NCBI GenBank assembly: GCA_048270185.1
Contig: JBLWTJ010000002.1
Location: 96,001-160,000, forward strand
Direction of reading: 5' to 3'
Length of the DNA stretch: 64,000 bases
DNA from: Bacteriovoracaceae bacterium
GTDB taxonomy: Bacteria > Bdellovibrionota > Bacteriovoracia > Bacteriovoracales > Bacteriovoracaceae
Both the position numbers and the translations under genes were made by a program. Positions 2,202-17,363 of this stretch are shown here, one piece after another (positions within the stretch are counted from its first letter, which is position 1; each line of letters starts with the position of its first letter). Below the pieces are notes generated by a model. The model was not told the origin of the DNA and made no database searches. It worked only from the letters and a program-made list of their open reading frames with translations.

Positions 2202-2216
2202 ACAACCTCACAGATT

Positions 2217-2256
2217 TGGTATATTTTACATATATTAATATATATAAAATATATCA
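2217..2256. promoter_or_regulatory. 40-bp imperfect palindrome between divergent norB and nsrR; probable NsrR/Rrf2 operator
   Basis: tggtatattttacatatatt / aatatatataaaatatatca, 18 of 20 positions complementary. Confidence 0.55.
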
Positions 2257-2291
2257 TTGTAAATGTAAAATATGAATGGCATAAATAATTT

Positions 2292-2944: not shown

Positions 2945-3223
2945 AAATTACTATTAAAAAATTTAAGTTTAAAGCCGTCTTGATCTTCTACGGGCTGGAT
3001 ACCTGCGAGGTATCATAACGATTTGTTGCCTTTGTCTATTCCTTTCCAATTGAAGGAAAAGTGATCTGTAGTCTTGTACGCATTTATCTAGAAAGGTTAT
3101 AAAGTCCGTGTTTAATTTTCCAAGATGAAAATCTATAAAATTTTGTCTTGAAAATGGAACAACGTAAGACCACCCATCTTCCTTAAGTGGCATAAGGAAA
3201 GGGGCTTCCACCACCGGAATCCG

Positions 3224-3239
3224 ATGGTGGAGGTGGTGG
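3224..3239. repeat. att-like direct repeat, copy of the tmRNA 3' end
   Basis: atggtggaggtggtgg identical to 13314-13329. Confidence 0.85.
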
Positions 3240-3339
3240 TAACCTTCGATCACCTTAATATTATTGATATAGCAAGAAGTCATTACTACAAATCACTACA
3301 TTACATTTTTTTAATTTTAAAATCCAAAATATTATCAAT

Positions 3340-4200
3340 TTAAGACTCGTCTTCTTCTATTCTTCTAGTAACTAAATTATTTTGTACGTCTCTAATCCAG
3401 GCTGCGACTCCATTTGAATTTTCTAGACCTGAAAAAAATATAGAGAACCAATTATTGAAAGATTCAAACTCTAAATCTTTATCATCTCGTGTTGAAATAA
3501 ATGAATTTTGCACCTCTTGCTCAGTTACATATCTTCCCCTAGGAAGATGCGGAAGCATTGCCTGGGGAGACCTTACAAGGCTGGCCCACTTGTCACTTAA
3601 CCAATTTAGAATATTCGTCTTTTCTACAACATTATTGATATGAAAAGTAACTGTCTGATTTGCACCCAATTGCCTCAATCTAACAACTGGTGCAGATAAA
3701 TCACCAGAGAATTCACAAGTGATTAACCTTTGGTTTAAAAAGTTATCAAAATATGGATGAATGATTCTTTCATTGGCATTTACTCCAGTAATCACGTTAC
3801 CTCTTTTTGAATTACATAAACATGAAGGTATCAGATTTCGTGAGTGTATTGTAAATTCGGGGTGAGTTGACTGTGGTAGGTAATGATCAACAGTCCCTGT
3901 CCCAATACTCCCACACATAGGGCAACAACTTGTAGAAACTTCATACCTTACTTGAGAAATAAAGCTTAAGCATTTTAGTGGATTTTTATAATGGTATTCT
4001 AGAGCATTTCTCAGTTCTGTGCCAATTTGCACAGAAGGACAGAGATATGGGTTTCCATTATTGTTTATAAATTGCTGATACTGAGCAAGCATAATTAGAT
4101 ACTCATGAGAAAGATAAGGATGACACTTAATGTGAGTCTTGCTACATAAATCTTTTAGCAACTGAATATCATCAATATTTGGCATATTTACTGATTTCAT
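3340..4200 (-). CDS. HNH endonuclease (Septu PtuB-like partner of the upstream ATPase)
   Basis: CPMCG...TVDHYLPQS..PEF.....NLIPSC.CNSKR HNH motif; starts 3 bp after the ATPase stop. Confidence 0.8.
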   Translation of the reverse strand: MKSVNMPNIDDIQLLKDLCSKTHIKCHPYLSHEYLIMLAQYQQFINNNGNPYLCPSVQIGTELRNALEYHYKNPLKCLSFISQVRYEVSTSCCPMCGSIGTGTVDHYLPQSTHPEFTIHSRNLIPSCLCNSKRGNVITGVNANERIIHPYFDNFLNQRLITCEFSGDLSAPVVRLRQLGANQTVTFHINNVVEKTNILNWLSDKWASLVRSPQAMLPHLPRGRYVTEQEVQNSFISTRDDKDLEFESFNNWFSIFFSGLENSNGVAAWIRDVQNNLVTRRIEEDES

Positions 4201-4203
4201 ACT

Positions 4204-5868
4204 TTAACCACTAATTTCTCGTTTTAACGACATCAATACTTCTGTAGATAACTCTGACTTGAGTGTATCGAGGTCAAAATCAATGTTACCTTTTTTATCA
4301 CGAATGTTTTCTAGAATATTATTAGTTAATTTATCATCAATATTGTCATCGAATACAAAGTGAGAAATGTCTCCGATATTAGCTCCATAGGTTTTCAACC
4401 TGGGATTCACAATACTAATACCTCTATCAGGCATCTCTTTAAAAACGTGAACTTGTTCTCTTGATATTTCTCTCACAAAATAAGCAGAATGGGTTGCAAT
4501 AATAGAGTAAGAGCCTGTAGCCCTTAGTAGCGTATTTAGCAATGATATAAAGTCAGAAATTAAATTAGGATGTAAGTGAGTTTCAGGCTCATCTAGTAAC
4601 AAGAGAGAACCGTTCTCGATATGTAAACAAGCTAACAATGCAACTTTAAAAAAAGAAAGCTGACCACTGCTTAAAGGATATAATGTGCCATCTCTAAATA
4701 TTTTGGGCTCAGCCTTCTCACTTATTGCTCCTAATAATAGAAGTCTTCTTTGTTCACCTATATTTCTTTTAAGAAATCCCGACAATGGATAAAACGGAGG
4801 AAGTCCGTCATATTGTTCTATTGGAATTACAATATCCTCAACAGGTAAACAATTACTTACTGAGTTGTAAAAAATATTATATCGAAACTGATTACCAATT
4901 ACATCTTCACTTCTAAGAAGCTGTTGAAAAGATTCCCCTGTTGCCGCATTTATACTTTTACTGTTCCTTATCATATTGAGTAGTTTATATTTTATTCTAG
5001 GCCTCTTAACATTCAGACGTGGAAATGTATTATAAACTTCACCTGGCGTCCCAATGGCAATAAGTCTATTTATTAATGGTCGACCAGTTTTTCCATTTGG
5101 GTCGCGTAAAATATTCAAATGATCTGTTCTTCCTACTAAAGCACTGACAATTTTACTTAATGCCTGGCTTTTACCTAAACCATTTTTACCAATCATAATA
5201 TTAATTCTTTTTGGTAAAACTGAGTCTTGGCTAAAAGTGAATTTTATTTGATGAGGGTTAGAAAATGAATCTAATTGAAATTTTAAATCTAAGTTTTTTG
5301 ATATTATATCGAAGCTTTCAAAGTCAAGGCCTTTTAGAATTTCTCCTGCACTGTGATAAGCAAAATAACTTTCAGAATTCCTCATAAATGCTTCACGAAA
5401 GGCCAAAGATTTCTTTCCCTTTATAAGCCAATCATCTGTTTTTTGTTGTTGTCCTTCCCAGAACACTAAATCTGAAACTGACTTTAGTACAGAATTTGCA
5501 ATTTCAGGTGTTACTGTTTTCACTAATTTTCTATACTCTCCAATAGTTGGCAACATTGTAAAGAATGCTTCGAAGTTTTCAACAGGGATTAATTCTTTTA
5601 CGGAGTTAGTTTTTTGTATATACTCTTGTAGCCTTGACCGAAGTCCAATTTCTACTTCGCTAGTTGTTTCAGGGACAAAAGCGAGAAAACTTTCAAAGGA
5701 AAATAAATCATTATTAGTTTTTAAATAAATTAGTGCTTTAATCTTATGTTTGAAATCATTCCACTGGTCCTCACTTGGAATTATTAAGATTTCTCCAGCC
5801 TCTAATTTGTCAGTATTTTTTTCGAGTGAGAATAAGACCTTCCATTCAGTTATTTTTTTGCTTTCCAT
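4204..5868 (-). CDS. ABC-type (AAA_21-like) ATPase, Septu PtuA-like defence protein
   Basis: Walker A GKNGLGKS, signature LSSGQ, Walker B LLLLDEPETHLHP, H-loop ATHS; no permease nearby; coupled to HNH. Confidence 0.8.
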   Translation of the reverse strand: MESKKITEWKVLFSLEKNTDKLEAGEILIIPSEDQWNDFKHKIKALIYLKTNNDLFSFESFLAFVPETTSEVEIGLRSRLQEYIQKTNSVKELIPVENFEAFFTMLPTIGEYRKLVKTVTPEIANSVLKSVSDLVFWEGQQQKTDDWLIKGKKSLAFREAFMRNSESYFAYHSAGEILKGLDFESFDIISKNLDLKFQLDSFSNPHQIKFTFSQDSVLPKRINIMIGKNGLGKSQALSKIVSALVGRTDHLNILRDPNGKTGRPLINRLIAIGTPGEVYNTFPRLNVKRPRIKYKLLNMIRNSKSINAATGESFQQLLRSEDVIGNQFRYNIFYNSVSNCLPVEDIVIPIEQYDGLPPFYPLSGFLKRNIGEQRRLLLLGAISEKAEPKIFRDGTLYPLSSGQLSFFKVALLACLHIENGSLLLLDEPETHLHPNLISDFISLLNTLLRATGSYSIIATHSAYFVREISREQVHVFKEMPDRGISIVNPRLKTYGANIGDISHFVFDDNIDDKLTNNILENIRDKKGNIDFDLDTLKSELSTEVLMSLKREISG

Positions 5869-6175
5869 AATCTACCTATAATATATATTTACATGTAATT
5901 ATAGAGTAAAAACTAAAAACATAAAACTTACCTGTTTCTAGTTCCTACCTCTTTATAGAATCAATTACTTAAGGAAAGTAAATCTCTATCTTTTCATGTC
6001 TTGAAAAAGAGTTGTTTTATGGACATTTATATTTAGATTAATAACTCTTTAGAAAGATGTAATATTATTACCAGGCACTTTCAATCTAATACAAGCTAGT
6101 TAGTGTGATCACTTTAGTATAAAGTGAAAGTAATCTATTGCTACGCTTACCAGAATTTAAGCTAGTTATGACTTT

Positions 6176-6898
6176 CTATTCTAAAAGTAAATTAGATTTT
6201 TTAGCTAAGTAATCTACACTAGATTGATAATCTGGAAGGAAATTAGATATTAGATTCCAAAACTCTTTACCATGATTACGTTCCTTAAGGTGACACAGTT
6301 CATGTACTACAATATATCTAATTATATATTTAGGTAGAAAGGCCATTCTCCAATCTAATTTAATTACTCCATTATCTTCACATAGCGCCCAAACATCTTT
6401 TCTATCTATAAACTTTAGTTCTGGAGTTTTTATAATTAACTTTGATTCATACATTGAGGTGATTTTAATGTATTCCGTTTCAAGACTTTTCTTAAAAAAT
6501 GAAATAAATGAATCTTTAATTACTTCATTTCTAAATTTTAAAGGTATATCTATTGGAACATTAACATTAAATCCTCTAATAGAATGAGCTATTTCAACTT
6601 CATTCGTCTCGACAGCAGATATATTTATCATCTCATAGCGGTCGTGAAATAGAACCTTTGAACCACTCATAAAGTTTTCCGGCCATGGGTCACGAATCTC
6701 TCTATGACCTAACTCATACCACTGATTGAATATCCACTCTTCATTCTTTCTAAGAAATTCACTATTATCTGATAGCTGGGAACTAGGAACCTCTAACTCT
6801 ATTCCTAAAGGGGTTACATTTAGCCTTCTAGACTTCAATCTCTTATTTAGCGATACCTTACATGGTATTTTAGTTTTACCTACTTCAAAAAAATCCAT
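6176..6898 (-). CDS. M48/YgjP-like (DUF45) zinc metallopeptidase associated with type I R-M
   Basis: YIVVHELCHL...NH..EFW motif; abuts hsdR. Confidence 0.85.
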   Translation of the reverse strand: MDFFEVGKTKIPCKVSLNKRLKSRRLNVTPLGIELEVPSSQLSDNSEFLRKNEEWIFNQWYELGHREIRDPWPENFMSGSKVLFHDRYEMINISAVETNEVEIAHSIRGFNVNVPIDIPLKFRNEVIKDSFISFFKKSLETEYIKITSMYESKLIIKTPELKFIDRKDVWALCEDNGVIKLDWRMAFLPKYIIRYIVVHELCHLKERNHGKEFWNLISNFLPDYQSSVDYLAKKSNLLLE

Positions 6899-9800
6899 TT
6901 AAACCTTTATAAAATTCTTTAATGCGTACTCTTCAACTCTATTTGGAATCTCTTTTTGCCAGCCTTGTAACTTAACTGGTTGCAATATACGTCTTACTTT
7001 CTGCCTCAATTCTTTTCTAAGTTGCTCCATATGATTCCATCCTTTTGGTGCAGAATCATTAGAAGCATAGACTTCCTCTACTTCTTTAGCTATTTCTTTC
7101 AATTTGTTAATAACTTCTTTAGAGAGACCTTCACTTTTTTCATTTTTGGAATCATCATCAGACTTTTCTTCTGACTCATATCTGAAAGCTTCTAATATTT
7201 TTAAAATATCATACCCTCTTTCTGTTAAACCTGAGTCCTTATAAGCTTTATCTTCTTTGTTTAACTCTCCAGATAACTTTTCCATTTCTTTTAGAGCTTC
7301 TGATGCTTCAAGTTGTTTCTCTTCAAGTAATTTAATAATCTCAAGTAATCTTTCTGAAAACTTTTTATAGCGAAGCTCGTTATCATCAACTTTTTCACGA
7401 GTTATTTTCTTTAACTCAGTTGCTTTTCGAGTTGCTGCTTCTTTAATATCTTCAGGTGACTTCCCTTCTGTTTTAAAATCATTTTGAAACTCTGGGTCAG
7501 TTAACTTTCTAAGCTTAATAGTTGTTTTAAGACCTGTTACTTCTAAATGCTCATCAAGCATGGCCCTAATCTTTTCACTGTAATTCCCTAGAGGTTCAGC
7601 TTCTTTTTTCTCAAATGAAGGAGTTGCATATTGTAGGAATGCTACTGTCAGTTTTAAATCTTTTTGAAATTGAAGAATAAATGGTTCTGGACTAAGGATT
7701 TCATAAGCAGAAATAAATTCTTTAGCTTTCTTCTTAAATACAAGCCATCTGTCTTTAGTCTCAATAATCTCAATCAATTTTATGAATTCAGCCCTCAGGT
7801 TTGGCTGATTCCCATCAATCTCTTTTAAATATGCTGATACTTCCTCATGACTTCTAGTCAGATTCTCTTCTAATTTAGAAAAGTCTCTAGTTGCATTCTG
7901 AACATCTTCTTTTCTATAGCACTCTAGGGCCTTATCAAGTTTCTTAGTGATACCAATATAATCTACGATGAGACCACAGTCTTTACGACCTTCACTCCAA
8001 ACTCTATTTGCTCTAGCAATGGCTTGTAGTAAATTATGGTCTGTTAATGGGTTATCAACATACATGACACCTTCAATTGGAGCATCAAAACCAGTTAAAA
8101 GTTTGCTACATACAATTAAAAAAGAAGGCTCTTTGCTTTTTGTCTTAAAGTTATCTTTGATTTCAATTTCTTTATCTTTGTCAGCATAATATTTTTGGAG
8201 GTCTCCTCTTAACTCTTGGATGTACTCCTCCTCGCTTGGCTTAGCATCTTCTTGATTTCCTGAGTAAACACAAGCACTCATCTCATCAGCTTGTTTCTCA
8301 GCCTCTTCTTGTGAAAGTCCAGACTTTACTAAATCAGCAGTAATTACTTTATTTAATGCTCTTTTATATAAAATAATAGCTTCTCTATCATAAGCAACGA
8401 TTTGGGCTTTTAACCCATCTGGTTTTGCATATGCTTTATAGTGAGTCCAAATATCATAAGCTATAAGGTCAATTCTCTTTGGAAACTTAATTAACATTCC
8501 TAACGAGATACCTTTCTCTTTTAAAGCAGAGATGACTTCCTCGGGTTCATTGGCAAACCATTGGTCAAAAAGAATATCCATCTTAGCTGTTTCAACATTC
8601 CACTCAGTCATTCTCGCTGTGTGATGTATAGGAACTGTTGCACCATCTGCTACAGCATCATCAATATCATACTTATCAATGTAACCTTCACCTTCTGGAC
8701 TAAAGTTCGCATAAGTATCCATATCATTCTTTTTAACTGGTGTTCCTGTGAATCCAAAGAACTTAGCTTTTGGAAATGTTGCTCTAAGGTAAGCACCTAA
8801 ATCCTTCTCTTGAGTTCTGTGGCACTCATCTACTAAAAGAATCCAATTTTCACTATTTGGGATTGGGTCCTTTGAACCTTGAAACTTGAAAATAGTTGTA
8901 ACAACTGTAAGGCCCGTTGCCTCTGACTTAATCGTATCTCTTAACTGTGAGACACTCGTCATGTGTTTCGGATTTCTAATACCACAAGCTACAAACGTAT
9001 TCTTGATTTGTGTATCAAGGTCAACTCTATCTGTTAAAACTAGAATATTTGGATTCTCTAATGTCTTTGCATCCAATGTTAGGTGTGTTTTTAGCTTAAT
9101 TGCTGAAAAAACCATTGTTAAAGACTTTCCACTTCCTTGGGTATGCCAAACAAGACCTTTATTCTGTTCATCTTTTACAACTCTATCAACAATCTTGTTT
9201 ACTGCTCTAAACTGTTGGTAACGACATATCTTTTTGATGATATGAGTGTGACCGTCTTTATCCTTCTCTCTTTCAAAAACAATAAAGTGAGCTATTAAAT
9301 CTAAAAGGTTGTCTGGTTGGAGAAGTGCCCATAATGCTTTTTTAAGAGGGTCATTACTCAGGTCTTCATCTGTTTTTGGCCACGGATTTCTCCAATAACC
9401 ATAATATTTTGAACTCGAACCAGTTGCTCCATACAATGTGTTCTTTTCATTTGTTACAATATTGAAACAATTAGAAAAGAAAAGCCTTGGAATATCTCTT
9501 TCATATTGCTTTATCTGGTCAAAGGCTTCACCTGTTTTATCTTTATATGCAAAAGGACTCTTGGCCTCAATTACAACAACAGGAATACCGTTGATAAAAA
9601 TAACAACATCAGGCTTTCTAGAATGTTGAGACTTAACATAATACTGATTAGTAACAGTGAAAGTGTTATTTTCTGTATTCTTAAAATCAATTAGAAATAT
9701 AGTCTTTTTATCTGACTGTCCAGGAACGCTTTTACTATAGTCTCCTTTGATTATCTTTAACCATTTTTCATTATCAGAAAGGTTCAATAAATCTTGATAA

Positions 9801-10039
9801 ACAGAGTTTGCTACCTCGTCATCAACATCATTTATTCTTTTTATTGCAGCAAGAAGTTCATTTCTTAAAATGACATTTGTCTCACCATCTCTTTCTTGAG
9901 AATGTTTAGCTGGTTGGAGGTATTTATATCCTACAGTCTTATCATTACTCTTAAATAAATCGTCCTTACATAAGAAATCAAGAATTGGCACTTCAACCAT
10001 TCTCGTTTCTGGACCATATCCATCGGTCTCATAGCTCAT
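6899..10039 (-). CDS. hsdR: Type I restriction endonuclease subunit R
   Basis: KPD...FINGIP...IEAK nuclease motif, WHTQGSGKS, DECHR, GFTGTP, LTGFDAP, QAIARANR. Confidence 0.96.
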   Translation of the reverse strand: MSYETDGYGPETRMVEVPILDFLCKDDLFKSNDKTVGYKYLQPAKHSQERDGETNVILRNELLAAIKRINDVDDEVANSVYQDLLNLSDNEKWLKIIKGDYSKSVPGQSDKKTIFLIDFKNTENNTFTVTNQYYVKSQHSRKPDVVIFINGIPVVVIEAKSPFAYKDKTGEAFDQIKQYERDIPRLFFSNCFNIVTNEKNTLYGATGSSSKYYGYWRNPWPKTDEDLSNDPLKKALWALLQPDNLLDLIAHFIVFEREKDKDGHTHIIKKICRYQQFRAVNKIVDRVVKDEQNKGLVWHTQGSGKSLTMVFSAIKLKTHLTLDAKTLENPNILVLTDRVDLDTQIKNTFVACGIRNPKHMTSVSQLRDTIKSEATGLTVVTTIFKFQGSKDPIPNSENWILLVDECHRTQEKDLGAYLRATFPKAKFFGFTGTPVKKNDMDTYANFSPEGEGYIDKYDIDDAVADGATVPIHHTARMTEWNVETAKMDILFDQWFANEPEEVISALKEKGISLGMLIKFPKRIDLIAYDIWTHYKAYAKPDGLKAQIVAYDREAIILYKRALNKVITADLVKSGLSQEEAEKQADEMSACVYSGNQEDAKPSEEEYIQELRGDLQKYYADKDKEIEIKDNFKTKSKEPSFLIVCSKLLTGFDAPIEGVMYVDNPLTDHNLLQAIARANRVWSEGRKDCGLIVDYIGITKKLDKALECYRKEDVQNATRDFSKLEENLTRSHEEVSAYLKEIDGNQPNLRAEFIKLIEIIETKDRWLVFKKKAKEFISAYEILSPEPFILQFQKDLKLTVAFLQYATPSFEKKEAEPLGNYSEKIRAMLDEHLEVTGLKTTIKLRKLTDPEFQNDFKTEGKSPEDIKEAATRKATELKKITREKVDDNELRYKKFSERLLEIIKLLEEKQLEASEALKEMEKLSGELNKEDKAYKDSGLTERGYDILKILEAFRYESEEKSDDDSKNEKSEGLSKEVINKLKEIAKEVEEVYASNDSAPKGWNHMEQLRKELRQKVRRILQPVKLQGWQKEIPNRVEEYALKNFIKV

Positions 10040-10049
10040 TTTAATTTCC

Positions 10050-11210
10050 TTATATTACTTTTTTATCTCCTGTAAAAAAGTCTTTCTTTAATCCTTTTTT
10101 AATATACTCAAGTCGCTCAATTTTTTTATTCAACGTTGAAATCAAGGAGTCAATTTCTCTAATTACTTTTACAACTTCATCTTGTTGTTTCAGAGACGGT
10201 AAAGGTACGGGAATCTTTGAAAAGTCCGCATAATAAAGCCTTAACCTGTCATTGGTTAAACCGTAAGAATATTGATGAAACAATCTAATAAATTTCTCAG
10301 TTTGAAAGAGGTAATTATAAAACTGTGTATTTATATTTTTATTTTTTGGCTCCAGAACCACATATGCTGGACTTACTAGGAAATCTTGATTAGCAATGCC
10401 TTGAACGCCTTGCCACATTCTCATCATGTTATAAGCAATCCAACCTTTTTTAACCCATAGATGGTCTTCTGCTTTTAAGTTTGTCTCAACTTTTTTCTCT
10501 TCTTCACTACGAGGAACAATTCCACGTCCTTTAGTTACAGAAGCAAGAGGTATTCCATCAACTCCCTTGAGTTTGGAATCCTTAAATATATCTCCCATTT
10601 TAACAACATCAAATGTACTACTATCTTTTAATACTTTCCCCTCTTCCAAACATAATTGATAAAGGTCATTCATAACTCCTTTTTTAAGAGCCTGAGTTTT
10701 AATAATCCGTTTTTTGAATGCTTTTAATGTTGACTCTATAGAGTCTAAGATTTCCACAATTCTAGCTTGTTCTTTATTTGAAGGGATTGCAATTGGTATC
10801 TTTAAGATTTCTGGTTCAGAAATTTCTTTTTGGCCTGTTCCGCCAATTAAATTATCTACTTTTTTATAAAAACCATACCACTGAAATAACAACTCAATAA
10901 ACTTATCATTCTCATTTTCCTTGCACTTAAAACTAGATATTGCATTCGATGCAATTAAGCCATCTAAACTTTTTGGTACAATTCCAATCCCACCGTTATG
11001 GAAGTTTTGCCGACCGATTAAAATCTCACCTTCGTTTCTGATATAATACGGTCTCCCCCTCTCTGTAGGAACAGGTCTTTTACCTGAGTTTTTTATACCT
11101 TTACCGTGAAGCTGTACTGTTAAAGCATAATAATTTTGTGGAGATTCAACCTTTTCCTTTTTTACAATCTCTAGAACATCTCCAATTTTACACTTCCTCC
11201 AACTATTCAT
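10050..11210 (-). CDS. hsdS: Type I R-M specificity subunit S
   Basis: Two TRDs followed by IPIAIPS..EQ..IV and IPVPLPS...Q..VV conserved repeats. Confidence 0.92.
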   Translation of the reverse strand: MNSWRKCKIGDVLEIVKKEKVESPQNYYALTVQLHGKGIKNSGKRPVPTERGRPYYIRNEGEILIGRQNFHNGGIGIVPKSLDGLIASNAISSFKCKENENDKFIELLFQWYGFYKKVDNLIGGTGQKEISEPEILKIPIAIPSNKEQARIVEILDSIESTLKAFKKRIIKTQALKKGVMNDLYQLCLEEGKVLKDSSTFDVVKMGDIFKDSKLKGVDGIPLASVTKGRGIVPRSEEEKKVETNLKAEDHLWVKKGWIAYNMMRMWQGVQGIANQDFLVSPAYVVLEPKNKNINTQFYNYLFQTEKFIRLFHQYSYGLTNDRLRLYYADFSKIPVPLPSLKQQDEVVKVIREIDSLISTLNKKIERLEYIKKGLKKDFFTGDKKVI

Positions 11211-12906
11211 AGCCCAACTCTTTTAAAAAACTATTCAGTTTCTTTTCAGTTTGACCTAGTTGTTCATTAACTTGATTTAATGAAAAAGTGTAATTATCCC
11301 AGATATTTGACAATAAATTAAAGAGTGCGACTCTTTCGTCGCCAATTACTTTTTTCAAATCCGATTTAAGTTTAAAGACAGGCTGAAAGCGAATTGAATC
11401 GCCCTTTATTTCAAATACTGATTCAACATCTAATCCTTCCATCAACTCAATAAAATATTCATCTTCAAGTTCATATTTAGGAATGCCTCCCTTTAGAATA
11501 TGTTCGACATCATAATTCGTTAAAGGAGGTGCCGTATCTATATATCTTCTGATGTTTAAGTTGTAGTCATTTTCACCTAGTTCTTTATGTGAAACGACGA
11601 TAGAGAACCTATTTTCTTCAGTGTAGTTTGAGTAAGTTTCAACAATCTTATCAATGTCTGAAGACCTCAACCTTCTTTGGATTTTCCTATCCTCATAAAG
11701 CAACTCTGCATTTATAAACAACAATTTCTTTTTTCTATTCTCATCTCTTTTCTTTTTAAAAATTAACAGTGCTGTTGGAATCCCTGTTCCATAAAACAAT
11801 CCCTCAGGTAATCCAATAACAGCATCCAGAATATCCTCATTTTCAAATAAAGCTGTTCTTATTTTTCCTTCAGCATTTCCCCTAAACAAAATACCATGTG
11901 GAACGATAACTCCTAGCCTTCCATTTGAATTGAGGCTTTTTATCATATGCTGAACGAATGCAAAGTCTGCATAACTCTTGGGCGGACAACCAAATAAGTC
12001 TCTTCCGTAAGGGTCACCACCTTTCCATATCTCTTGTCCCCAGTTTTTTAATGAAAATGGAGGATTTGCTATAACAAAATCAAAAGTTTTAATTTTCTTT
12101 GATGCTTCATCATCAAATAAGAGAGGTTTTTTTAAAGTATCACCATGAACGACACGAGCATCATCAATATCATGAAGGAAAAGGTTCATCTGAGAAATTG
12201 CCCATGTATTTATGTTTTTCTCTTGCCCAAAAAGTCTTAACGACTTGGGATTTTTTTTATTTCTCTCCATATAATGAAAAGCCTCAAGTAACATACCTGC
12301 TGAACCACATGTAGGGTCATAAACACTTGCTCCTTCACTAGGCTTTAACAACTCTACGATTAACTGGACTACTTCTTTGGGAGTATAGAATTCACCACCT
12401 TTTGAACCTGCATCGTCTGCAAACTTTGCAATTAAGTATTCATATGCATTTCCAAGCATGTCCGATGGGACATTCTTTTTCATTAGAGAGTATTTATCAA
12501 AATGCTGGATAAGCAATTCTAATGTAGAATCAGGAAACCTTCTCTTATTATTAAAATCTACATCCTGGAATACTCCATTTAACCTCTTGTTAGAATCTTC
12601 AATTGCTCTAAATGAGGAATTTAATGCTTCTCCAATATTTGTTGTCTTCTTTTTTACATCAGACCAAAAACAACCTTCAGGGATATGAAAGCGGTGCTCT
12701 TCAGGGTCCTTAGCAAGTTCTTCGTCTTCAAACTCCTTCAACCTTTCTTCGTACTCCTCTACCCATACATCTGAAAGACGCTTATAAAATAGAAGTCCAA
12801 AAATATAATGTTTATAGTCGGCCGCATCGATGGCACCTCTTAAAATATCGGCTGCTCCCCAGAGATGCGACTCAAGTTCTTGTTGTGTCAGTTTCTTATT
12901 TTCCAT
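11203..12906 (-). CDS. hsdM: Type I R-M m6A methyltransferase subunit M
   Basis: LW.AAD.LRG, GEFYTP, YDPTCGSAGML, NPPF. Confidence 0.96.
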   Translation of the reverse strand: MENKKLTQQELESHLWGAADILRGAIDAADYKHYIFGLLFYKRLSDVWVEEYEERLKEFEDEELAKDPEEHRFHIPEGCFWSDVKKKTTNIGEALNSSFRAIEDSNKRLNGVFQDVDFNNKRRFPDSTLELLIQHFDKYSLMKKNVPSDMLGNAYEYLIAKFADDAGSKGGEFYTPKEVVQLIVELLKPSEGASVYDPTCGSAGMLLEAFHYMERNKKNPKSLRLFGQEKNINTWAISQMNLFLHDIDDARVVHGDTLKKPLLFDDEASKKIKTFDFVIANPPFSLKNWGQEIWKGGDPYGRDLFGCPPKSYADFAFVQHMIKSLNSNGRLGVIVPHGILFRGNAEGKIRTALFENEDILDAVIGLPEGLFYGTGIPTALLIFKKKRDENRKKKLLFINAELLYEDRKIQRRLRSSDIDKIVETYSNYTEENRFSIVVSHKELGENDYNLNIRRYIDTAPPLTNYDVEHILKGGIPKYELEDEYFIELMEGLDVESVFEIKGDSIRFQPVFKLKSDLKKVIGDERVALFNLLSNIWDNYTFSLNQVNEQLGQTEKKLNSFLKELGYE

Positions 12907-13314
12907 GTAAAAAATAGTATATTAAAGATAACGCTTTTTGAATTGAAACTTATCTCAATTTCAATGAGTTAAGTTCTCTTCATTTAAATTTTGTAGTTAG
13001 AATTTTTGAAGGAATGTTTTGTTGTTAATCAATACAGTTTTAAAAACTTGTTTTAACTTCAACTCATTAGTGTCCATTAAACCTCTCAACACCTTTCGGA
13101 CTGAATGTATGACTATCACTTCGTCTTGGAAGTTTTGTTTCTTAAAAGTGCTATTAAATTTGTAGTTTGTTTGGGCCTCAAACTACGGCCACCAACTACA
13201 AAGTGTTGCAACAGGGCTTATTTTAAGTGATTTCTACTGACATTGAGCTAGTTAGCAAAGCATCAAGTCGTTGAGATTACTGAAGCCAAAACTCAACAAT
13301 TTCAACGCCTTGCA

Positions 13315-13682
13315 TGGTGGAGGTGGTGGGAATCGAACCCACGTCCGAAATGATTTCTTGATAGCGGCCTACGTGCGTAGTCTTCGGTTATCGTCAGAAG
13401 ACAAGACTGTCCGTGATACGTGACCTCGGCGAACCCCGGTGAGTGATTAACGAGCAGGCCCGGCGGGCTCGAAACCTAGTTAGCCAGCAGATTCAACTGG
13501 GTCGCTACATTCTGTTTCTTGGCAGTAGCGCCTCACAAGACTAATCCTAATTAATTAGGCAGCCATTGGCATTGCATAATCGTCTGCAATTAACGGTGGA
13601 CTCCTTTTTACCAGGACCGTGGAGACCAACCTGGACACGCCCGGATACCTGTCTACCATCCCGTCGAAACCAGGGCACCCCC
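13315..13682 (-). ncRNA. ssrA: tmRNA; tag peptide (A)ADDYAMPMAA* encoded at 13587-13555
   Basis: 5' GGGGGUG...GGUUUCGAC and 3' GGUUCGAUUCCC-ACCACCUCCACCA; acceptor stem with G3-U wobble; internal tag ORF ending AA-stop; smpB present in window. Confidence 0.96.
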
Positions 13683-13726
13683 ATGAGATTTTGACACGGA
13701 TATTTGAACAAATATTCGTAAGCGGC

Positions 13727-13755
13727 AGTATAGCACAGCATTTCAAATGTGGAAA
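13727..13755 (-). promoter_or_regulatory. Probable sigma70 promoter of ssrA
   Basis: Minus strand TTTCCA-N17-TATACT with TG extension. Confidence 0.55.
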
Positions 13756-13787
13756 GAAATGGATTTTCGGTGATTTGATATAGTCTC

Positions 13788-13865
13788 AAAAAGAAGAACC
13801 CCGTAAAACGGGGTGCTTCTTTGGCAAGTCATAGAATTGTGATCTCGAAGGGCACAACCTATTTA
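13788..13865 (-). ncRNA. Candidate antitoxin sRNA 1 (ends approximate)
   Basis: Extended -10 TGGTAAAAT (13880-13872); terminator hairpin accccg-taaaa-cggggt with U-rich tail on the minus strand; complementary to peptide-1 mRNA at 13949-13966 and 14009-14025. Confidence 0.65.
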
Positions 13866-13939
13866 CAAAGAATTTTACCATACTTTGCCGATTTCCTCCA
13901 TTCTTCCTCAATGAGGAGGACTCTTTTTTGGAGATGTTC

Positions 13940-14014
13940 ATGGAAGGACTTTGGCAAGTCATAGAAATCATAGTGCTTATTATTCAGTTAATTCTGGTTC
14001 TAAGAAAGTTGTGA
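13940..14014 (+). CDS. 24-aa hydrophobic peptide MEGLWQVIEIIVLIIQLILVLRKL, candidate type I toxin 1
   Basis: GGAG SD 6 nt upstream, single TM-like helix with basic C-terminus, own terminator, paralogue 253 bp downstream. Confidence 0.75.
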   Translation: MEGLWQVIEIIVLIIQLILVLRKL

Positions 14015-14020
14015 TTTCGG

Positions 14021-14048
14021 AGGGCGTAGTGAAAGCTGCGCCCTTTTA
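14021..14048 (+). terminator. Intrinsic terminator of peptide 1
   Basis: agggcgtag-tgaaag-ctgcgccct hairpin followed by T run. Confidence 0.75.
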
Positions 14049-14049
14049 T

Positions 14050-14120
14050 AAACAACAAAACCCCGTAAGAACGGGGTTAAGTTTTTGGTTACTACTAGAA
14101 ATCCTCGGAGGGCACTAGAT
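14050..14120 (-). ncRNA. Candidate antitoxin sRNA 2 (ends approximate)
   Basis: Extended -10 TGCTATAAT (14135-14127); terminator aaccccgt-aaga-acggggtt plus U-rich tail; complementary to peptide-2 mRNA at 14204-14222 and 14269-14278. Confidence 0.65.
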
Positions 14121-14192
14121 TAATCAATTATAGCATAATTCTAACCATAGCTCCACTTTCTCCGCCCAATGAAGGGAGTCTAGGAGAAAGTC

Positions 14193-14267
14193 ATGGATGA
14201 CTATTGGTTACTACTAGAAATCATGACCTATGTAGTTCAAATTATTTTGATCTTACGGAAGTTGTGA
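14193..14267 (+). CDS. 24-aa hydrophobic peptide MDDYWLLLEIMTYVVQIILILRKL, candidate type I toxin 2
   Basis: AGGAG SD; same length and W..EI..Q..L.LRKL pattern as peptide 1; own terminator. Confidence 0.75.
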   Translation: MDDYWLLLEIMTYVVQIILILRKL

Positions 14268-14273
14268 TTTCGG

Positions 14274-14302
14274 GGGGCGCAGTGAAAGCTGCGCCCCTTT
14301 TT
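14274..14302 (+). terminator. Intrinsic terminator of peptide 2
   Basis: ggggcgcag-tgaaag-ctgcgcccc followed by ttttt. Confidence 0.75.
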
Positions 14303-14304
14303 CC

Positions 14305-14787
14305 CTACTCCCCACTCCTAGCACGAGCAATATCGTAGAATCCCTCATAGATCAGGTAAATAGGAATCATAACGATCAGCTGAACGGCCACGACTTTCAC
14401 CAAGAATAAAGCCGAGTAAACACTACTTGGAAAGAAGTACAAGAGCGTTGCGATTTGAAAGGTTCCAGCCCCAAAGACGCTGGCATTCTTAAAAGATCGA
14501 GAAATGAAGTCATAAGGAGAACGGATATCTTTAAGCGTAATCTTTGCTTTCATATCCTCACCCTTTGCAAGCTTTTTAAAATTTGCAAATCCTCCTAGGA
14601 TTGCAACGAGGAGGAAGTGCGCCAGAGTTAGCCCTATAATAACTGATAAAATCACAAGATAGAGGTCAAGTGAGCTCTCAATACTTGAGCCTCTTCTCTC
14701 ATAACCACAAACTCCTCCAAGCACAAGACCTGAAAGGTAGATCATCACAATTGAATAATTTAATTTAAACTTACTCATCACTATCAT
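14305..14787 (-). CDS. Hypothetical 4-TM membrane protein
   Basis: ORF with four hydrophobic segments; operonic with two upstream genes. Confidence 0.6.
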   Translation of the reverse strand: MIVMSKFKLNYSIVMIYLSGLVLGGVCGYERRGSSIESSLDLYLVILSVIIGLTLAHFLLVAILGGFANFKKLAKGEDMKAKITLKDIRSPYDFISRSFKNASVFGAGTFQIATLLYFFPSSVYSALFLVKVVAVQLIVMIPIYLIYEGFYDIARARSGE

Positions 14788-15184
14788 TCTCTGTCTTATT
14801 TAAAAACTTATAGACCGCCTCAATAACAATCATAAAAACTGAACAATAGAAAATCGTATACAAGAGAGTCGAACCGATTGCATGATAATAAGATCTCCCC
14901 TCAGTTAGATAATTATACATGCAAAGCATAATTATCGTTGCGGCTCCAAAACCATGAGCAAGATAACCATAAGCTTCACCACTTCTGCTTTTTTGACAGT
15001 CTTGATAAAAGCAATAAAGAGCATAAAGTCCTAGTCCAGTAACCATGGCATAGGCAAAGCCAGTACTTAGAATTACGATAAGATCATTATTGTTAATACC
15101 GTATGTTTCGGCGACTCCAAGTCCAAATGCAGATAATAAGCATAGGCTTATAAGACTTTTAATTTTTCTATCGAGTAACATCAT
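14771..15184 (-). CDS. Hypothetical 4-TM membrane protein
   Basis: Four hydrophobic segments; AGGAG SD overlaps the stop of the upstream gene. Confidence 0.6.
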   Translation of the reverse strand: MMLLDRKIKSLISLCLLSAFGLGVAETYGINNNDLIVILSTGFAYAMVTGLGLYALYCFYQDCQKSRSGEAYGYLAHGFGAATIIMLCMYNYLTEGRSYYHAIGSTLLYTIFYCSVFMIVIEAVYKFLNKTENDSDE

Positions 15185-15189
15185 TTCTC

Positions 15190-16542
15190 CTACATTCCAA
15201 ACTGCGGTCTACCGTAGTTAATCTGTAATTCTTTAAGATTTATATTTAGATCTCTATTTAAGTTTACATTATCATCGATAACATCAATATCATTTTTTAC
15301 TCTGCCTAAAAGATCGATCATTCTACCATCCGAACAGTCCTTCTTCCCCTTGCACTCACCCTCATCTTCAGGTTTCTTTGGGTTTGTAGGTTTATCGTCA
15401 CCTTTCGGGGTATCGTCGCCTTTCGGCGTATCATCACCTTTTGGCGTATCGTCGCCCTTCGGCGTATCGTCACCTTTTGGTTGATCTCCGCCACCAGTTC
15501 TTGGATTATCTACTTTAGGAGTATCTGGCTTTTCTGGTTTATCTTCAGGAATATCTGGAGCACCACCTGTTCTCGGATTATCAACCTTAGGTGTATCAGA
15601 TTTAGGCTTGTCTTGTTTTTGATTCTTTCCTTTATAATATTCTTTAAGTTCTGAATTACAGTTCATCATGCATACGCCACCGGCAATTAGAGCTGCTCCT
15701 ACGCCAACATATGGACCTAGCTTACTTCCAGCTAGCCCGCCCATAAGCGTCGTTATTCCACAATTAACTAAACAAGTTTTAACATCTCCACTGCTCGTCG
15801 AGCTAGTTGAGTACAAAAGACTATTCTTATCCCTCTCAAGTTTATTACCTAAAAGAGGACTAATCATTTCATCACCATCATTAAAGCTTGGATCACCACC
15901 CATTCTTGGACCAAGGCCAAAGTCTTGCTTACCTCTTGATGGCATTTGATCGCCACCTAAGTCTCCACCAAATTGACCATCTTCATGGCCCATTCTCGGT
16001 CCACCAAAGTCAGGTTTATTTGAGCGAGAAAGAGGTGGATCAAAAGAAGGTCTTGAAGGATCAACAGTGCGGTCGATTTCGATGCCGAAAGTTTTTTCAA
16101 CTTCATCACCAATTGCAGGGTTTAGTTTATTGATGATACTTGCAACTTGAGAAACCTTATCCATCTTTCCCATCGATGCGAACATATCCATCGTCACAAC
16201 AGATGGAAAAAGAAGACCGTCGTGAAGTCCCTTACTTTTGATATTATCTTTTATCCCTTTCATCATCATAAGCTTATCAACCATTCCAAGAGAACCATCG
16301 ACATCTGAAATTTGAACTAAGCGACTGACAAGTCGATCAAGAGTTGCACTTGGAAATTTTTTAGAAAGCTCATTAGTAAAGTCGACTTCAGCCTTTAAAA
16401 ATATTTTAAAGTTTTGTGCTCTCTCTTTAAGACACTCAACATCTCCAGCACAAGCATCTAGAGATTGTGCCACTACATTAAAAGACGATAGCAAGACGAT
16501 CATCATAAGCATTGAAAATTTGTGTAAGTAAATCACTCTCAT
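15190..16542 (-). CDS. Secreted protein with Cys-bracketed Gly-rich hydrophobic segment and Pro/Asp repeats
   Basis: Signal peptide; CLVNC...GGLAG...GAALIAGGVCMMNC; DTPKVDNPRTGG x2; PKGDD(T/K) x5. Confidence 0.7.
   Translation of the reverse strand: MRVIYLHKFSMLMMIVLLSSFNVVAQSLDACAGDVECLKERAQNFKIFLKAEVDFTNELSKKFPSATLDRLVSRLVQISDVDGSLGMVDKLMMMKGIKDNIKSKGLHDGLLFPSVVTMDMFASMGKMDKVSQVASIINKLNPAIGDEVEKTFGIEIDRTVDPSRPSFDPPLSRSNKPDFGGPRMGHEDGQFGGDLGGDQMPSRGKQDFGLGPRMGGDPSFNDGDEMISPLLGNKLERDKNSLLYSTSSTSSGDVKTCLVNCGITTLMGGLAGSKLGPYVGVGAALIAGGVCMMNCNSELKEYYKGKNQKQDKPKSDTPKVDNPRTGGAPDIPEDKPEKPDTPKVDNPRTGGGDQPKGDDTPKGDDTPKGDDTPKGDDTPKGDDKPTNPKKPEDEGECKGKKDCSDGRMIDLLGRVKNDIDVIDDNVNLNRDLNINLKELQINYGRPQFGM
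15391..15480 (-). repeat. 5 x 18-bp coding tandem repeat (PKGDDT)
   Basis: Units such as gtatcgtcgcctttcggc repeated with synonymous variation. Confidence 0.9.
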
Positions 16543-16763
16543 TCTTTCTCCTAATTTGTATTTCGCAAATATATATATTCAATCTTGTTGCCAATAACAT
16601 GGAGGTATAAACAACTGAAATCACGAATATTTACAAAGACACCTGGTCTATATCAGACTACTTAGTCCAGATAAGACTTAAACTAGAACGAAAGTAGCAG
16701 GTCCTGCCTACACAAGCTAAGTACTTTCAAAATGAAATGGAGATTTTCAATATTAGAATATTT

Positions 16764-17363
16764 TTAAGATAACGCTTTAAGCATTTCCGCAAGCCCGCGA
16801 GCTTGTTCACCCTCACTCACCTTCTCAAACTCAGGCAGGTGAATGAAGCCGGCCTTAGCGCGCATCTTCTTCTCATCAATAATGTGGCGGATGCCGTAGA
16901 AGATGTGATTGCACACATAGCGGCCACAATCTCTTGAGATGGCAACAGGAATCTGCGCTGCTAACAGGGCGTCTTCCATCTCCTTAATTGGCAGAGTCGA
17001 CGCAAGAGTAGCCGCCCCCTCTGCAAAGATCTTCTCACCTTCGGGTTTATTTCCCTCATTATCGGCAATGCGGGCCTCATCAAGATTATGAGCAAGGACT
17101 TCGAGATTGATCTCACTTGCCTTGGCATTGAGGCCAAAGCACAGAATATAATCGGGATTTAAAAGAAAGGCTTCCTTCTTTAAAATGGTCAGGGCCTTAC
17201 CAAAGACCACCGGAAGGATGAGTTTTGAGACCTCAATTTCTTCTATTTCATTTTTATAATTTTCAACGAGAATTTGGGAGGGGTTGGAATCCCCTCCATC
17301 GAATGGTTCAAAACCCGTTATGAGTATTTTTTTTGATCGATTAGCGCGATTAGTATGAAACAT
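16764..17363 (-). CDS. pcp: Pyroglutamyl-peptidase I
   Basis: ILITGFEPF.G...NPS, G.YVCN, GFIHLP. Confidence 0.92.
   Translation of the reverse strand: MFHTNRANRSKKILITGFEPFDGGDSNPSQILVENYKNEIEEIEVSKLILPVVFGKALTILKKEAFLLNPDYILCFGLNAKASEINLEVLAHNLDEARIADNEGNKPEGEKIFAEGAATLASTLPIKEMEDALLAAQIPVAISRDCGRYVCNHIFYGIRHIIDEKKMRAKAGFIHLPEFEKVSEGEQARGLAEMLKALS

What the first reader, a model, noticed from the sequence alone, without database searches (positions are those of the whole stretch)
13788..14302. Tandem pair of unannotated peptide/sRNA modules: candidate new type I toxin-antitoxin family beside tmRNA
Seen: the apparent intergenic gap holds two ~255-bp units with the same layout. Each has a terminator hairpin for a minus-strand RNA, a guide block, divergent promoters, an SD, a 24-codon ORF and a terminator. 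The peptides are MEGLWQVIEIIVLIIQLILVLRKL and MDDYWLLLEIMTYVVQIILILRKL (acidic N-terminus, one hydrophobic helix, RKL end). Each upstream block exactly copies part of its own ORF: ctttggcaagtcatagaa at 13819-13836 = 13949-13966, and ttggttactactagaaatc at 14085-14103 = 14204-14222. These blocks differ between units, so guide and target co-diverged. Known: small membrane toxins with divergent, non-overlapping antitoxin sRNAs exist (TisB/IstR-1, ShoB/OhsC, ZorO/OrzO). Inference: two orthogonal type I TA pairs. I do not recognise the peptide family and know of no such locus in predatory bacteria.
Basis: partly seen in the sequence, partly recalled or inferred. Interest (0 to 1): 0.9.

Follow-up and report, generated by a model that had tools for sequence, protein, structure and literature searches.

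The report
New small-RNA-controlled membrane peptide gene family
Next to the tmRNA gene of a marine predatory bacterium lie two copies of a tiny gene for a 24-residue membrane peptide, each paired with its own small antisense RNA gene whose guide sequence has changed in step with its target in eight lineages, which makes this a very likely new family of RNA-controlled toxin-antitoxin modules.

Summary
Window 13788-14302 holds two homologous units of about 255 bp. Each has a minus-strand terminator hairpin, a guide block that exactly copies 18 or 19 nt of its own ORF, a Shine-Dalgarno site, a 24-codon hydrophobic ORF and a terminator.

New here:
- The guide block has two parts. The second part matches the stop-codon and terminator-arm region of the same mRNA.
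- All 11 intact units carry an extended -10 promoter (TGnTA...T) on the minus strand.
- A covariance model found nine more intact units of the same layout in five further genomes, one of another genus.
- Across these 11 units there are 8 different guide sequences. Each fits its own ORF at 15-17 of 17 positions; the mean for foreign ORFs is 11.
- Guide/target differences are mostly in the G·U-compatible direction, which fits a minus-strand RNA pairing with the plus-strand mRNA.

No Pfam, NCBIfam or Rfam family matches. The peptide superfamily was found only in this bacterial family: 39 of 237 genomes, and 0 of 300 genomes elsewhere in the phylum.

Transcription and toxicity are untested. Best reading: a new type I toxin-antitoxin family of the zor-orz layout (confidence about 0.7).

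The parts
13315..13682 (-). tmRNA gene (context; its promoter region 13683-13760 is conserved in relatives that lack the units)
   Evidence: ARAGORN; Rfam RF00023, 121.8 bits; synteny
13788..13865 (-). Predicted antitoxin sRNA-1 (about 78 nt). It has a 5' hairpin with a UCGA-type loop, a guide and an intrinsic terminator.
   Evidence: Terminator-like site 13814-13798; fold with z = -4.0; the ends are inferred from the -10 element and the U run. No RNA data.
13872..13880 (-). Extended -10 promoter of sRNA-1 (TGgTAAAAT on the minus strand)
   Evidence: The same element type is present in 11 of 11 units.
13819..13836 (-). Guide segment A of unit 1; its plus-strand letters equal ORF-1 nt +10 to +27
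   Evidence: D6, 100%
13837..13856 (-). Guide segment B of unit 1; it is like the end of ORF-1, the stop codon and the 5' arm of the terminator (14009-14028)
   Evidence: D3, 80%. With one penalty for every mismatch, the first 17 nt of the block (13837-13853) align, and both differences there are G·U-compatible.
13889..13939 (+). 5' UTR of peptide mRNA-1 (start inferred). It has a hairpin 13902-13920 with a CAAUGA-type loop. A pyrimidine stretch pairs with the start-codon region. SD GGAGA is at 13930-13934.
   Evidence: Folds; consensus fold
13940..14014 (+). ORF-1, 24 codons plus stop: MEGLWQVIEIIVLIIQLILVLRKL
   Evidence: pN 0.30 against pS 0.70 versus ORF-2
14019..14047 (+). Intrinsic terminator of mRNA-1
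   Evidence: Folds; consensus pairs
14050..14121 (-). Predicted antitoxin sRNA-2 (about 71 nt)
   Evidence: Terminator-like site 14078-14059; fold with z = -2.6
14127..14135 (-). Extended -10 promoter of sRNA-2 (TGcTATAAT on the minus strand)
14085..14103 (-). Guide segment A of unit 2; it equals ORF-2 nt +12 to +30
   Evidence: D2, 100%
14104..14115 (-). Guide segment B of unit 2; it is like the stretch just behind the ORF-2 stop codon and the terminator arm (about 14268-14280)
   Evidence: D7
14148..14192 (+). 5' UTR of mRNA-2 (start inferred). The anti-SD CTTTCTCC at 14156-14163 pairs with the SD region GGAGAAAG at 14183-14190.
   Evidence: Folds
14193..14267 (+). ORF-2, 24 codons plus stop: MDDYWLLLEIMTYVVQIILILRKL
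14273..14302 (+). Intrinsic terminator of mRNA-2
   Evidence: Folds

Best explanation
Each unit is a type I toxin-antitoxin-like module.

The plus strand gives a heavily folded mRNA of about 155-160 nt for a 24-residue single-helix membrane peptide. The peptide has an acidic N-terminus, a polar residue in the helix and a basic C-terminus. Its ribosome-binding region is shut in by the 5' UTR.

The minus strand gives a divergent, non-overlapping sRNA of about 65-80 nt from a strong extended -10 promoter. This sRNA has three parts:
- a 5' hairpin that shows a conserved (C/U)CGA motif in its loop;
- a unit-specific guide of 17-19 nt;
- an intrinsic terminator.

Inferred mechanism: the hairpin region (segment B) pairs with the conserved UCGG stretch at the stop codon and with the 5' arm of the mRNA terminator. 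The guide (segment A) pairs with codons 4-10, which lie inside the ribosome's footprint. The sRNA thus clamps both feet of the ORF hairpin. This blocks translation initiation and probably offers a long duplex to a double-strand RNase or opens the protective 3' hairpin.

The two units in the window have different guides and targets, so each sRNA should mainly control its own mRNA.

Shown: the sequence layout, its recurrence, guide-target covariation, the direction of wobble-compatible differences and the mRNA folding signals. Inferred: transcription of both RNAs, pairing in the cell, toxicity of the peptide and the mode of repression.
For: 1. Layout at the stated coordinates.

2. Recurrence. 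Model R1 (ORF plus terminator) was searched in 151 genomes of the family and matched 14 at E <= 0.1. After inspection, real units are in G000, G002, G004, G009 and G034 (type A), and in G006, G011 and a weak second G002 place on contig C1 (type B relatives). G245, G108, G109, G113, G121 and G170 are mere terminators. G154 was not inspected. The peptide profile A6 then added type A units in G008 and G011.

3. There are 11 intact type A units in 6 genomes of 2 genera. In each, the guide block starts 108-122 nt upstream of the ATG and matches ORF nt from +4 to +13 onward.

4. Covariation. The best match of each guide to its own ORF is 15-17 of 17 (mean 16.1). Foreign ORFs give a mean of 11.1, and the high foreign values occur only between orthologues. 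There are 8 distinct specificities.

5. Strand information. With one penalty for every mismatch, the transitions between guide block and mRNA are 6 G·U-compatible against 1 incompatible in segment A, and 11 against 1 in segment B. These counts include orthologous, non-independent units; my estimate is about 12 against 2 independent events. This direction fits only a minus-strand RNA of the block pairing with the plus-strand mRNA.

6. Extended -10 TGnTA...T on the minus strand in 11 of 11 units. The 5' hairpin has the CG of the motif in its loop in 10 of 11 units, with different stem sequences.

7. Coding signals. Start, stop, length and SD are kept. pN/pS is 0.30/0.70 (U1 against U2) and 0.036/0.184 (U1 against G002 U1). 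A competing 61-aa minus-strand frame is not kept in frame in G002.

8. mRNA folds. z = -4.6 and -6.0 for the whole mRNAs and -2.8 and -4.7 for the ORF hairpins. The SD is mostly paired, with an unpaired probability of 0.00-0.32 in the 7 units computed.

9. Decay patterns typical of toxin genes:
- G002 U2 lost its promoter, SD and start by a deletion between the 19-nt repeats.
- The G011 ORF has TAA at codon 10 while the sRNA part is intact.
- A near-identical metagenome contig carries I20N in ORF-2.

10. Published parallels:
- zor-orz has tandem pairs, 18-19 nt of complementarity and specificity set by a few guide bases (PMC3919570, abstract and passages read).
- orz-only strains exist (PMC11264685, abstract).
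- Fst/RNA II has two-site pairing through DNA direct repeats plus the terminator (PMC7472228, passages read).
Against: - No RNA evidence: no RNA run holding this DNA was offered.
- No recognisable sigma-70 promoter for the peptide mRNA (and by eye), so the mRNA 5' end and part of the predicted 5' fold are uncertain.
- Toxicity is untested. Harmless small membrane proteins with sRNA regulators exist.
- The dN/dS estimate rests on 24 codons, and one control frame gave a similar ratio.
- Two units have a non-wobble mismatch inside the guide: G009/G002-c1 (U·C) and G034-c53 (A·C).
- The wobble-direction count uses related units, and its statistics are rough.
- Segment B is conserved between units, so strict orthogonality is doubtful. 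Duplex energies for foreign pairs stay strongly negative.
- The UCGG target is predicted to be mostly paired in the mRNA (unpaired probability 0.08-0.12), which does not favour an easy first contact there.
Confidence: 0.7

Rival explanations
1. The same sRNA-plus-mRNA pair exists, but the peptide is a harmless small membrane protein, for example a modulator of a membrane complex. Its synthesis is tuned by a dedicated antisense RNA, and this is not a toxin-antitoxin module.
For: All the RNA-level evidence fits this reading equally well. Nothing here measures toxicity. No known toxin family matches.
Against: - Tandem duplication with diverged specificities.
- Patchy presence: 39 of 237 genomes.
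- Copy-number change between sister species.
- Repeated inactivation of the ORF with the sRNA kept.
- Several layers of translational shut-off.

These are the marks listed for type I toxins in PMC2887945 (passages read) and are unusual for housekeeping small proteins.
Confidence: 0.17
2. The repeats are neutral scars of local duplication and deletion in a recombination hot spot beside tmRNA. The ORFs and hairpins have no function, and no antisense RNA is made.
For: The tmRNA-pcp interval is variable between species. G002 shows a deletion between the 19-nt repeats. The guide block looks like an internally deleted copy of the ORF.
Against: Neutral scars would drift apart. Instead guide and target stay 15-17 of 17 alike while they differ between units as much as the ORFs do. 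The layout, the minus-strand extended -10 and the hairpin recur at unrelated sites in two genera. ORF length, start and stop are kept.
Confidence: 0.04
3. The direct repeats are twin binding sites for a DNA-binding regulator, one in the promoter region and one in the ORF. They are not RNA pairing partners.
For: Repeated operators around promoters are common. The block lies near the divergent promoter region.
Against: Eight different repeat sequences would need eight co-evolving proteins, and no adjacent regulator gene is shared between loci. The one-sided excess of G·U-compatible differences has no meaning for DNA binding.
Confidence: 0.03

Closest known systems
zorO-orzO / zorP-orzP of E. coli O157:H7 (type I TA; PMC3919570, PMC5397157, PMC11264685)
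   Same: - Tandem duplicated pairs.
- The sRNA gene is divergent from the toxin gene and does not overlap it.
- 18-19 nt of perfect complementarity.
- A few differing guide bases set which mRNA is repressed.
- The toxin mRNA is self-inhibited by its 5' UTR.
- Antitoxin-only loci occur.
   Different: - No sequence relation was found. There is no Rfam hit on the sRNA genes and no Pfam or NCBIfam hit on the peptides.
- The peptide here has 24 residues, against 29 for ZorO.
- OrzO pairs with the long 5' UTR through its 5' end. Here the guide pairs inside the ORF (codons 4-10) and lies in the middle of the sRNA.
- A second pairing block for the stop-codon and terminator region is present here.
- The host phylum differs.
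tisB/istR-1, shoB/ohsC, dinQ/agrB (Gram-negative type I TA with the asRNA 5' of the mRNA and not overlapping it; grouping as in T1TAdb, PMC8594479)
   Same: The genetic organisation class is the same: the asRNA lies upstream and divergent, within 300 nt, and has short complementarity.
   Different: There is no match to the Rfam models of these sRNAs at E <= 10. The targets of those sRNAs lie in the 5' UTR (as I recall; PMC5397157 abstract for the general statement). No SOS box was looked for here.
par (Fst / RNA II) of pAD1 and relatives (PMC7472228)
   Same: Complementarity comes from DNA direct repeats read in opposite directions. Pairing is at two sites, a terminator-region contact plus the translation start region. 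An intramolecular stem-loop hides the SD. The poorly conserved repeat sequences give specificity between paralogous systems.
   Different: par RNAs are convergent and share one bidirectional terminator. Here the genes are divergent, each with its own terminator. The Fst motif (PXXXG) is not in these peptides (alignment). par systems are from Gram-positive hosts.

Membership tests
Type I toxin-antitoxin systems (class) | Small (under 60 aa) hydrophobic peptide with a predicted membrane helix | tested here: met
   24 aa; best 12-residue hydropathy window 2.5-3.6 in all units
Type I toxin-antitoxin systems (class) | Antisense RNA gene with its own promoter and terminator, complementary to the toxin mRNA | tested here: inconclusive
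   Complementarity, the extended -10, the terminator and covariation are met in 11 of 11 units. The transcript itself has not been seen: no RNA run was offered.
Type I toxin-antitoxin systems (class) | Overproduction of the peptide is toxic and the sRNA relieves it | not testable with these tools
   Needs expression experiments
Type I toxin-antitoxin systems (class) | Toxin mRNA folded so that its ribosome-binding site is hidden | tested here: met
   z = -4.6 and -6.0. SD unpaired probability is 0.00-0.32 in the 7 units computed. The predicted pairing depends on the unknown 5' end.
Zor/Orz family | Homology of the peptide to ZorO/ZorP and of the sRNA to OrzO/OrzP | tested here: not met
   No Pfam or NCBIfam hit at E <= 10 (13 peptides at E <= 1). 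No sRNA family hit in Rfam at E <= 10 over 12900-14900. I did not check that each library holds a Zor or Orz model.
Zor/Orz family | The sRNA 5' end pairs with the long 5' UTR of the toxin mRNA | tested here: not met
   The target is inside the ORF, from nt +10 to +30
Fst/RNA II (par) family | Convergent transcription across direct repeats with a shared bidirectional terminator | tested here: not met
   The genes are divergent and each has its own terminator
Known sRNA families (Rfam 15) | Score at or above a family's gathering threshold | tested here: not met
   Only tmRNA passes. The best other matches in 13788-14307 score 18.8-23.8 bits against thresholds of 39-72.

The most novel reading that the evidence does not exclude
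The antitoxin gene is a recycled toxin gene. A tandem copy of the peptide gene lost its middle, so that codons 2-9 were joined to the stop-codon and terminator-arm region, and it gained an antisense promoter. The resulting sRNA is a 'deletion mirror' of its target. It clamps both feet of the ORF hairpin, and it reaches into the terminator's 5' arm, so it controls translation and the mRNA 3' end together. This would be a general and simple route by which trans-acting type I antitoxins are born and re-specified. Type B relatives, which have no such block, would show the state before or after it.
Probability: 0.3. Interest if true: 0.72.

Novelty: new member of a known kind. Interest (0 to 1): 0.6.

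Why it matters
I found no type I toxin-antitoxin system described for Bdellovibrionota in the searchable literature:
- ('type I toxin-antitoxin' + Bdellovibrio): 3 papers, seen as a listing only; none is on this by title or abstract.
- (Halobacteriovorax + toxin-antitoxin): 3 papers, listing only.
- Passage searches of the T1TAdb paper and of Fozo et al. 2010: the main texts hold no 'Bdellovibrio'. Their supplements were not opened.

This locus gives a compact, natural set of eight guide/target specificities on one scaffold. That is a ready-made system for studying three things:
- how antisense RNAs discriminate between near-identical targets;
- how such pairs duplicate and re-specify;
- how antitoxin genes arise.

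For predatory bacteria it adds a candidate dormancy, stabilisation or phage-defence element at tRNA/tmRNA-linked variable spots.

It also shows that a covariance model of the mRNA found relatives that a peptide profile and BLAST had missed. This is useful when hunting such loci elsewhere.

Tried and rejected
**Searches that found no relatives or no match**
- blastn of the 528-bp locus. In the own genome only the locus itself matched; the other 15 of 16 matches were 15-26 nt at E >= 0.4. In 61 relatives only G002 matched.
- The first peptide profile (3 sequences, A2). In 237 family genomes and in 401 phylum genomes only G000 and G002 matched. The weak hits G176 and G103 were inspected and are spurious.
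- Exact-pattern scans:
  - Genome contigs gave 1 hit, a Treponema chance match.
  - Metagenome contigs gave 7 hits, none a unit. They fall in three groups of near-identical contigs, all inside longer frames or other sequence.
  - Viral contigs gave 16 hits, none a unit.
- blastn against plasmids and phages: no match.
- Pfam and NCBIfam on the peptides: no family.
- Earlier notes of this scan, searched by place and by sequence: nothing on this locus. A search by words gave only unrelated E. coli cases.

**Steps that could not be done or were uninformative**
- No RNA holder was listed among the sequencing runs.
- The laid metagenome contigs show a diverged, full-length U2 with 5 changes in its guide (run X8). 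The table was cut before the ORF positions, so covariation in that contig could not be read.
- RNAduplex on whole RNAs gives long artificial duplexes and was not used for argument beyond cognate against foreign ranking. The same test on type B arrays was uninformative.
- RNAalifold on the MAFFT alignment of 11 sRNAs recovered only the terminator, because the 5' hairpins were misaligned. They were then examined one by one.
- The search for homologous proteins does not take queries under 40 aa. By their stated length limits, the structure, atlas, representative-search and complex tools do not take a 24-aa peptide either, so no fold or oligomer prediction was made.

**Readings considered and dropped**
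- The 61-aa minus-strand ORF 13786-13971 as the real gene. Its frame is not kept in G002.
- The TTG start at 13928 (28 aa). All family members start M-E/D with an SD in front of that ATG.
- The hairpin 13902-13920 plus T run as an attenuator. The T run is not kept in U2 or in G002.
- A sigma-28-type promoter at GCCGAT 13887. This was noted by eye from a recalled consensus; the spacing is off and the motif is not kept in U2.
Full report
**What is there**

Window 13683-14304 lies between the 5' end of the tmRNA gene (13315-13682, minus strand) and a convergent membrane-protein gene (14305-14787, minus strand). It holds two homologous units, U1 (13788-14047) and U2 (14048-14302). They align end to end; the tool gives a mean column identity of 79%.

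Read on the plus strand, each unit has these parts in order:
- a G+C-rich hairpin that is followed by a T run on the minus strand (13814-13798 and 14078-14059);
- a block that copies part of the unit's own ORF exactly (13819-13836 = 13949-13966, 18 nt; 14085-14103 = 14204-14222, 19 nt);
- an A+T-rich promoter region;
- a folded leader with an SD;
- a 24-codon ORF (13940-14014 and 14193-14267);
- a strong terminator hairpin.

First, the block has two parts. Directly behind the ORF-start copy (segment A) comes a second stretch, segment B (13837-13856; 14104-14115). It resembles the last codons, the stop codon and the 5' arm of the terminator of the same mRNA (family D3, 80%). On the plus strand the block therefore looks like the peptide gene with its middle removed.

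Second, the minus strand carries an extended -10 promoter at the right place: TGgTAAAAT at 13872-13880 and TGcTATAAT at 14127-14135. By contrast I could not find a convincing sigma-70 promoter for the peptide mRNA (and by eye). A weak toxin promoter would be usual for such systems, but here it is simply not identified.

Third, the mRNAs are predicted to be very structured, with z = -4.6 and -6.0 against dinucleotide shuffles. They have three domains:
- a leader that pairs with the SD/AUG region;
- a hairpin that closes the ORF from codon 9 to the stop codon (z = -2.8 and -4.7);
- the terminator.

**Relatives**

Sequence searches first suggested an orphan.
- blastn found only the sister species G002 among 61 relatives.
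- A three-sequence peptide profile found only G000 and G002 among 237 genomes of the family and 401 of the phylum.
- Exact-pattern scans of genome, metagenome and viral contig collections gave only chance hits.

G002 is informative in itself.
- Its U1 is intact beside tmRNA, with one guide difference (A for G) that still allows a G·U pair.
- Its U2 lies on the other side of a two-gene cassette. It has lost everything between the two 19-nt repeats (promoters, leader, SD and start codon), as expected from recombination between them.
- The tmRNA-pcp interval has no insert in G008 and G009, a membrane-protein cassette in G004 and G011, and a cassette plus units in G000 and G002.

A covariance model of ORF plus terminator (R1) then found more.
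- Among 151 family genomes, 14 matched at E <= 0.1.
- On inspection, G245, G108, G109, G113, G121 and G170 are ordinary terminators, and G154 was not inspected.
- The others are real small-ORF units.

A 13-sequence peptide profile (A6) matched 39 of 237 family genomes in 12 of 69 genera at E <= 0.01. In the phylum sample it matched 12 of 401 genomes at E <= 0.001. All 12 are in this family, and 0 of 300 genomes of the 37 other families matched.

In the loci fetched I found 43 matching ORFs.
- Eleven intact ones, in G000, G002, G004, G008, G009 and G034 (two genera), have the full 'type A' layout of the window.
- A twelfth type A unit, in G011, has a TAA at codon 10 while its sRNA part is intact.
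- The other 32 are 'type B'. These are peptides of 24-27 residues, often in tandem arrays spaced 325-365 nt, without an upstream guide block.

**The test of the interpretation**

In all 11 type A units the guide block starts 108-122 nt upstream of the ATG and matches the ORF from nt +4 to +13 onward.

The units carry 8 different guide sequences. Each guide fits its own ORF at 15-17 of 17 positions (mean 16.1). Foreign ORFs give a mean of 11.1. The only high foreign values are between orthologues, and guide-to-foreign-target similarity tracks target-to-target similarity. Within one orthologous locus, G008 differs from G009 at four adjacent target positions, and the guide has the same four changes.

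Neutral scars of a duplication would not stay matched in this way. A protein operator would not come in eight versions.

Direct repeats on one DNA strand can only 'interact' if one copy is read from the other strand. Which copy that is follows from the differences. With one penalty for every mismatch, transitions between block and mRNA are 6 to 1 (segment A) and 11 to 1 (segment B) in the direction where the block has C or A and the mRNA has T or G. This gives G·U pairs only if the block is transcribed from the minus strand and the ORF from the plus strand. The units are related, so these are not independent counts; I estimate about 12 to 2 independent events.

Further support:
- 11 of 11 units have the extended -10 on the minus strand.
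- 10 of 11 predicted sRNAs fold their 5' part into a hairpin with the CG of a conserved (C/U)CGA motif in the loop. The stem sequences differ between units.
- The complement of the motif, UCGG, sits just behind the stop codon of every mRNA.

**Is the ORF a gene?**

- Start codon, SD, length (24 codons in all 11 type A units) and stop are kept.
- Substitutions keep an acidic N-terminus, a hydrophobic core with one polar residue, and a basic or bulky C-terminus.
- pN/pS is 0.30/0.70 between U1 and U2, and 0.036/0.184 between U1 and its G002 orthologue. This rests on only 24 codons, and one control frame gave a similar ratio.
- The overlapping 61-aa minus-strand frame is not kept in frame in G002.

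**Mechanism**

The most likely mechanism is that of a type I toxin-antitoxin pair of the class in which the antisense RNA gene lies upstream, divergent and non-overlapping (tisB/istR-1, shoB/ohsC, zor/orz, dinQ/agrB; grouping in PMC8594479, passages read).

The guide covers codons 4-10, that is from +10 or +12 of the ORF. This lies within the region a starting ribosome occupies (my recollection of the 'five-codon window' work, not checked here). Direct block of initiation is therefore the simplest effect.

Segment B adds a second contact that reaches into the 5' arm of the terminator. Two-site pairing with a terminator-region contact is known for Fst/RNA II (PMC7472228, passages read). Whether segment B makes the first contact is open, because the UCGG target is predicted to be mostly paired.

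Specificity should come from segment A. In zor-orz, three differing bases stop OrzP from repressing zorO, and 15 continuous or 17 discontinuous pairs are needed (PMC3919570, abstract and passages read). Here foreign guide/target pairs share 11-12 of 17 positions between U1 and U2. Segment B is conserved, so some cross-binding cannot be excluded.

**What argues for 'toxin' rather than a harmless small protein**

- Tandem duplication with new specificities.
- Patchy, copy-number-variable distribution.
- Several layers of shut-off.
- Three cases in which the ORF is damaged or altered: the G002 U2 deletion (sRNA promoter lost as well), the G011 nonsense codon (sRNA gene kept), and an I20N change in a near-identical metagenome contig.

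This mirrors the orz-only E. coli strains (PMC11264685, abstract). It is indirect evidence. Toxicity has to be measured.

**Known or new**

- Rfam gives only tmRNA in 12900-14900; all other matches are far below threshold.
- Pfam and NCBIfam give nothing for the peptides.
- The literature library gave no paper on type I systems in Bdellovibrio-like bacteria (listings only; main-text passage searches; supplements not opened).
- Earlier notes of this scan name the genome a marine Halobacteriovorax. I did not verify this.

I therefore file the locus as a new family within a known kind of system. It has one unusual trait, the two-part guide that mirrors the toxin gene with its middle deleted. The position beside tmRNA seems incidental: the second type A locus of the genus lies about 1 kb from a tRNA-Met gene in 4 of the 8 loci checked, and other loci checked show no tRNA gene nearby.

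Noticed in passing
L146 (G251), L159 (G249), L148 (G229), L147 and L133 (G006), L131 (G011), L138 (G002): 'Type B' relatives of the peptide have 24-27 aa and begin M-E/D-E/D-x-I/M-R. They occur in tandem arrays spaced 325-365 nt and have no upstream guide block. Instead, the start of the leader and a short tail just behind the terminator are complementary to codons 1-7. This looks like an mRNA locked by its own two ends. Their antitoxin, if any, was not found.
   Followed up: partly
window 13902-13920 and 14160-14178; the same element in L124, L126, L134, L137, L146, L148: A leader hairpin with a conserved loop (C/U)AAUGA and a stem that differs between units is shared by type A and type B units. 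Its function is unknown. In U1 it is followed by a T run and was flagged as terminator-like.
   Followed up: partly
L144 1490-1565 (G011): An orthologous type A unit has TAA at codon 10 of the ORF, while its guide block, extended -10 and sRNA terminator are intact. It is an antitoxin-only locus in the making.
   Followed up: yes
window 13683-16763; L046, L093-L096: The interval between tmRNA and the pyroglutamyl-peptidase gene (16764-17363) is a variable spot. G008 and G009 have no insert, G004 and G011 have a membrane-protein cassette, and G000 and G002 have the cassette plus the units. The cassette lies right of both units in G000 but between them in G002. The cassette's 450-aa protein (15190-16542) has a Lys/Asp/Pro-rich tandem repeat and no Pfam family.
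   Followed up: partly
window 1-12906: A type I restriction-modification methylase gene lies behind the 3' end of tmRNA (11203-12906; N6_Mtase, E = 5.8e-104). Long ORFs of 386 and 1046 aa follow it and may be its S and R subunits; they were not scanned. G002 has other genes there. This may be an island inserted at tmRNA.
   Followed up: no
L142, L143, L145, L144: The second type A locus of the genus lies about 1 kb from a tRNA-Met (CAT) gene in G009, G004, G008 and G011.
   Followed up: partly
window 14251 and 14175 (run X3): A near-identical seawater metagenome contig differs at only two of 780 positions. One turns Ile20 of ORF-2 into Asn in the middle of the helix, and the other lies in the leader of unit 2.
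   Followed up: no
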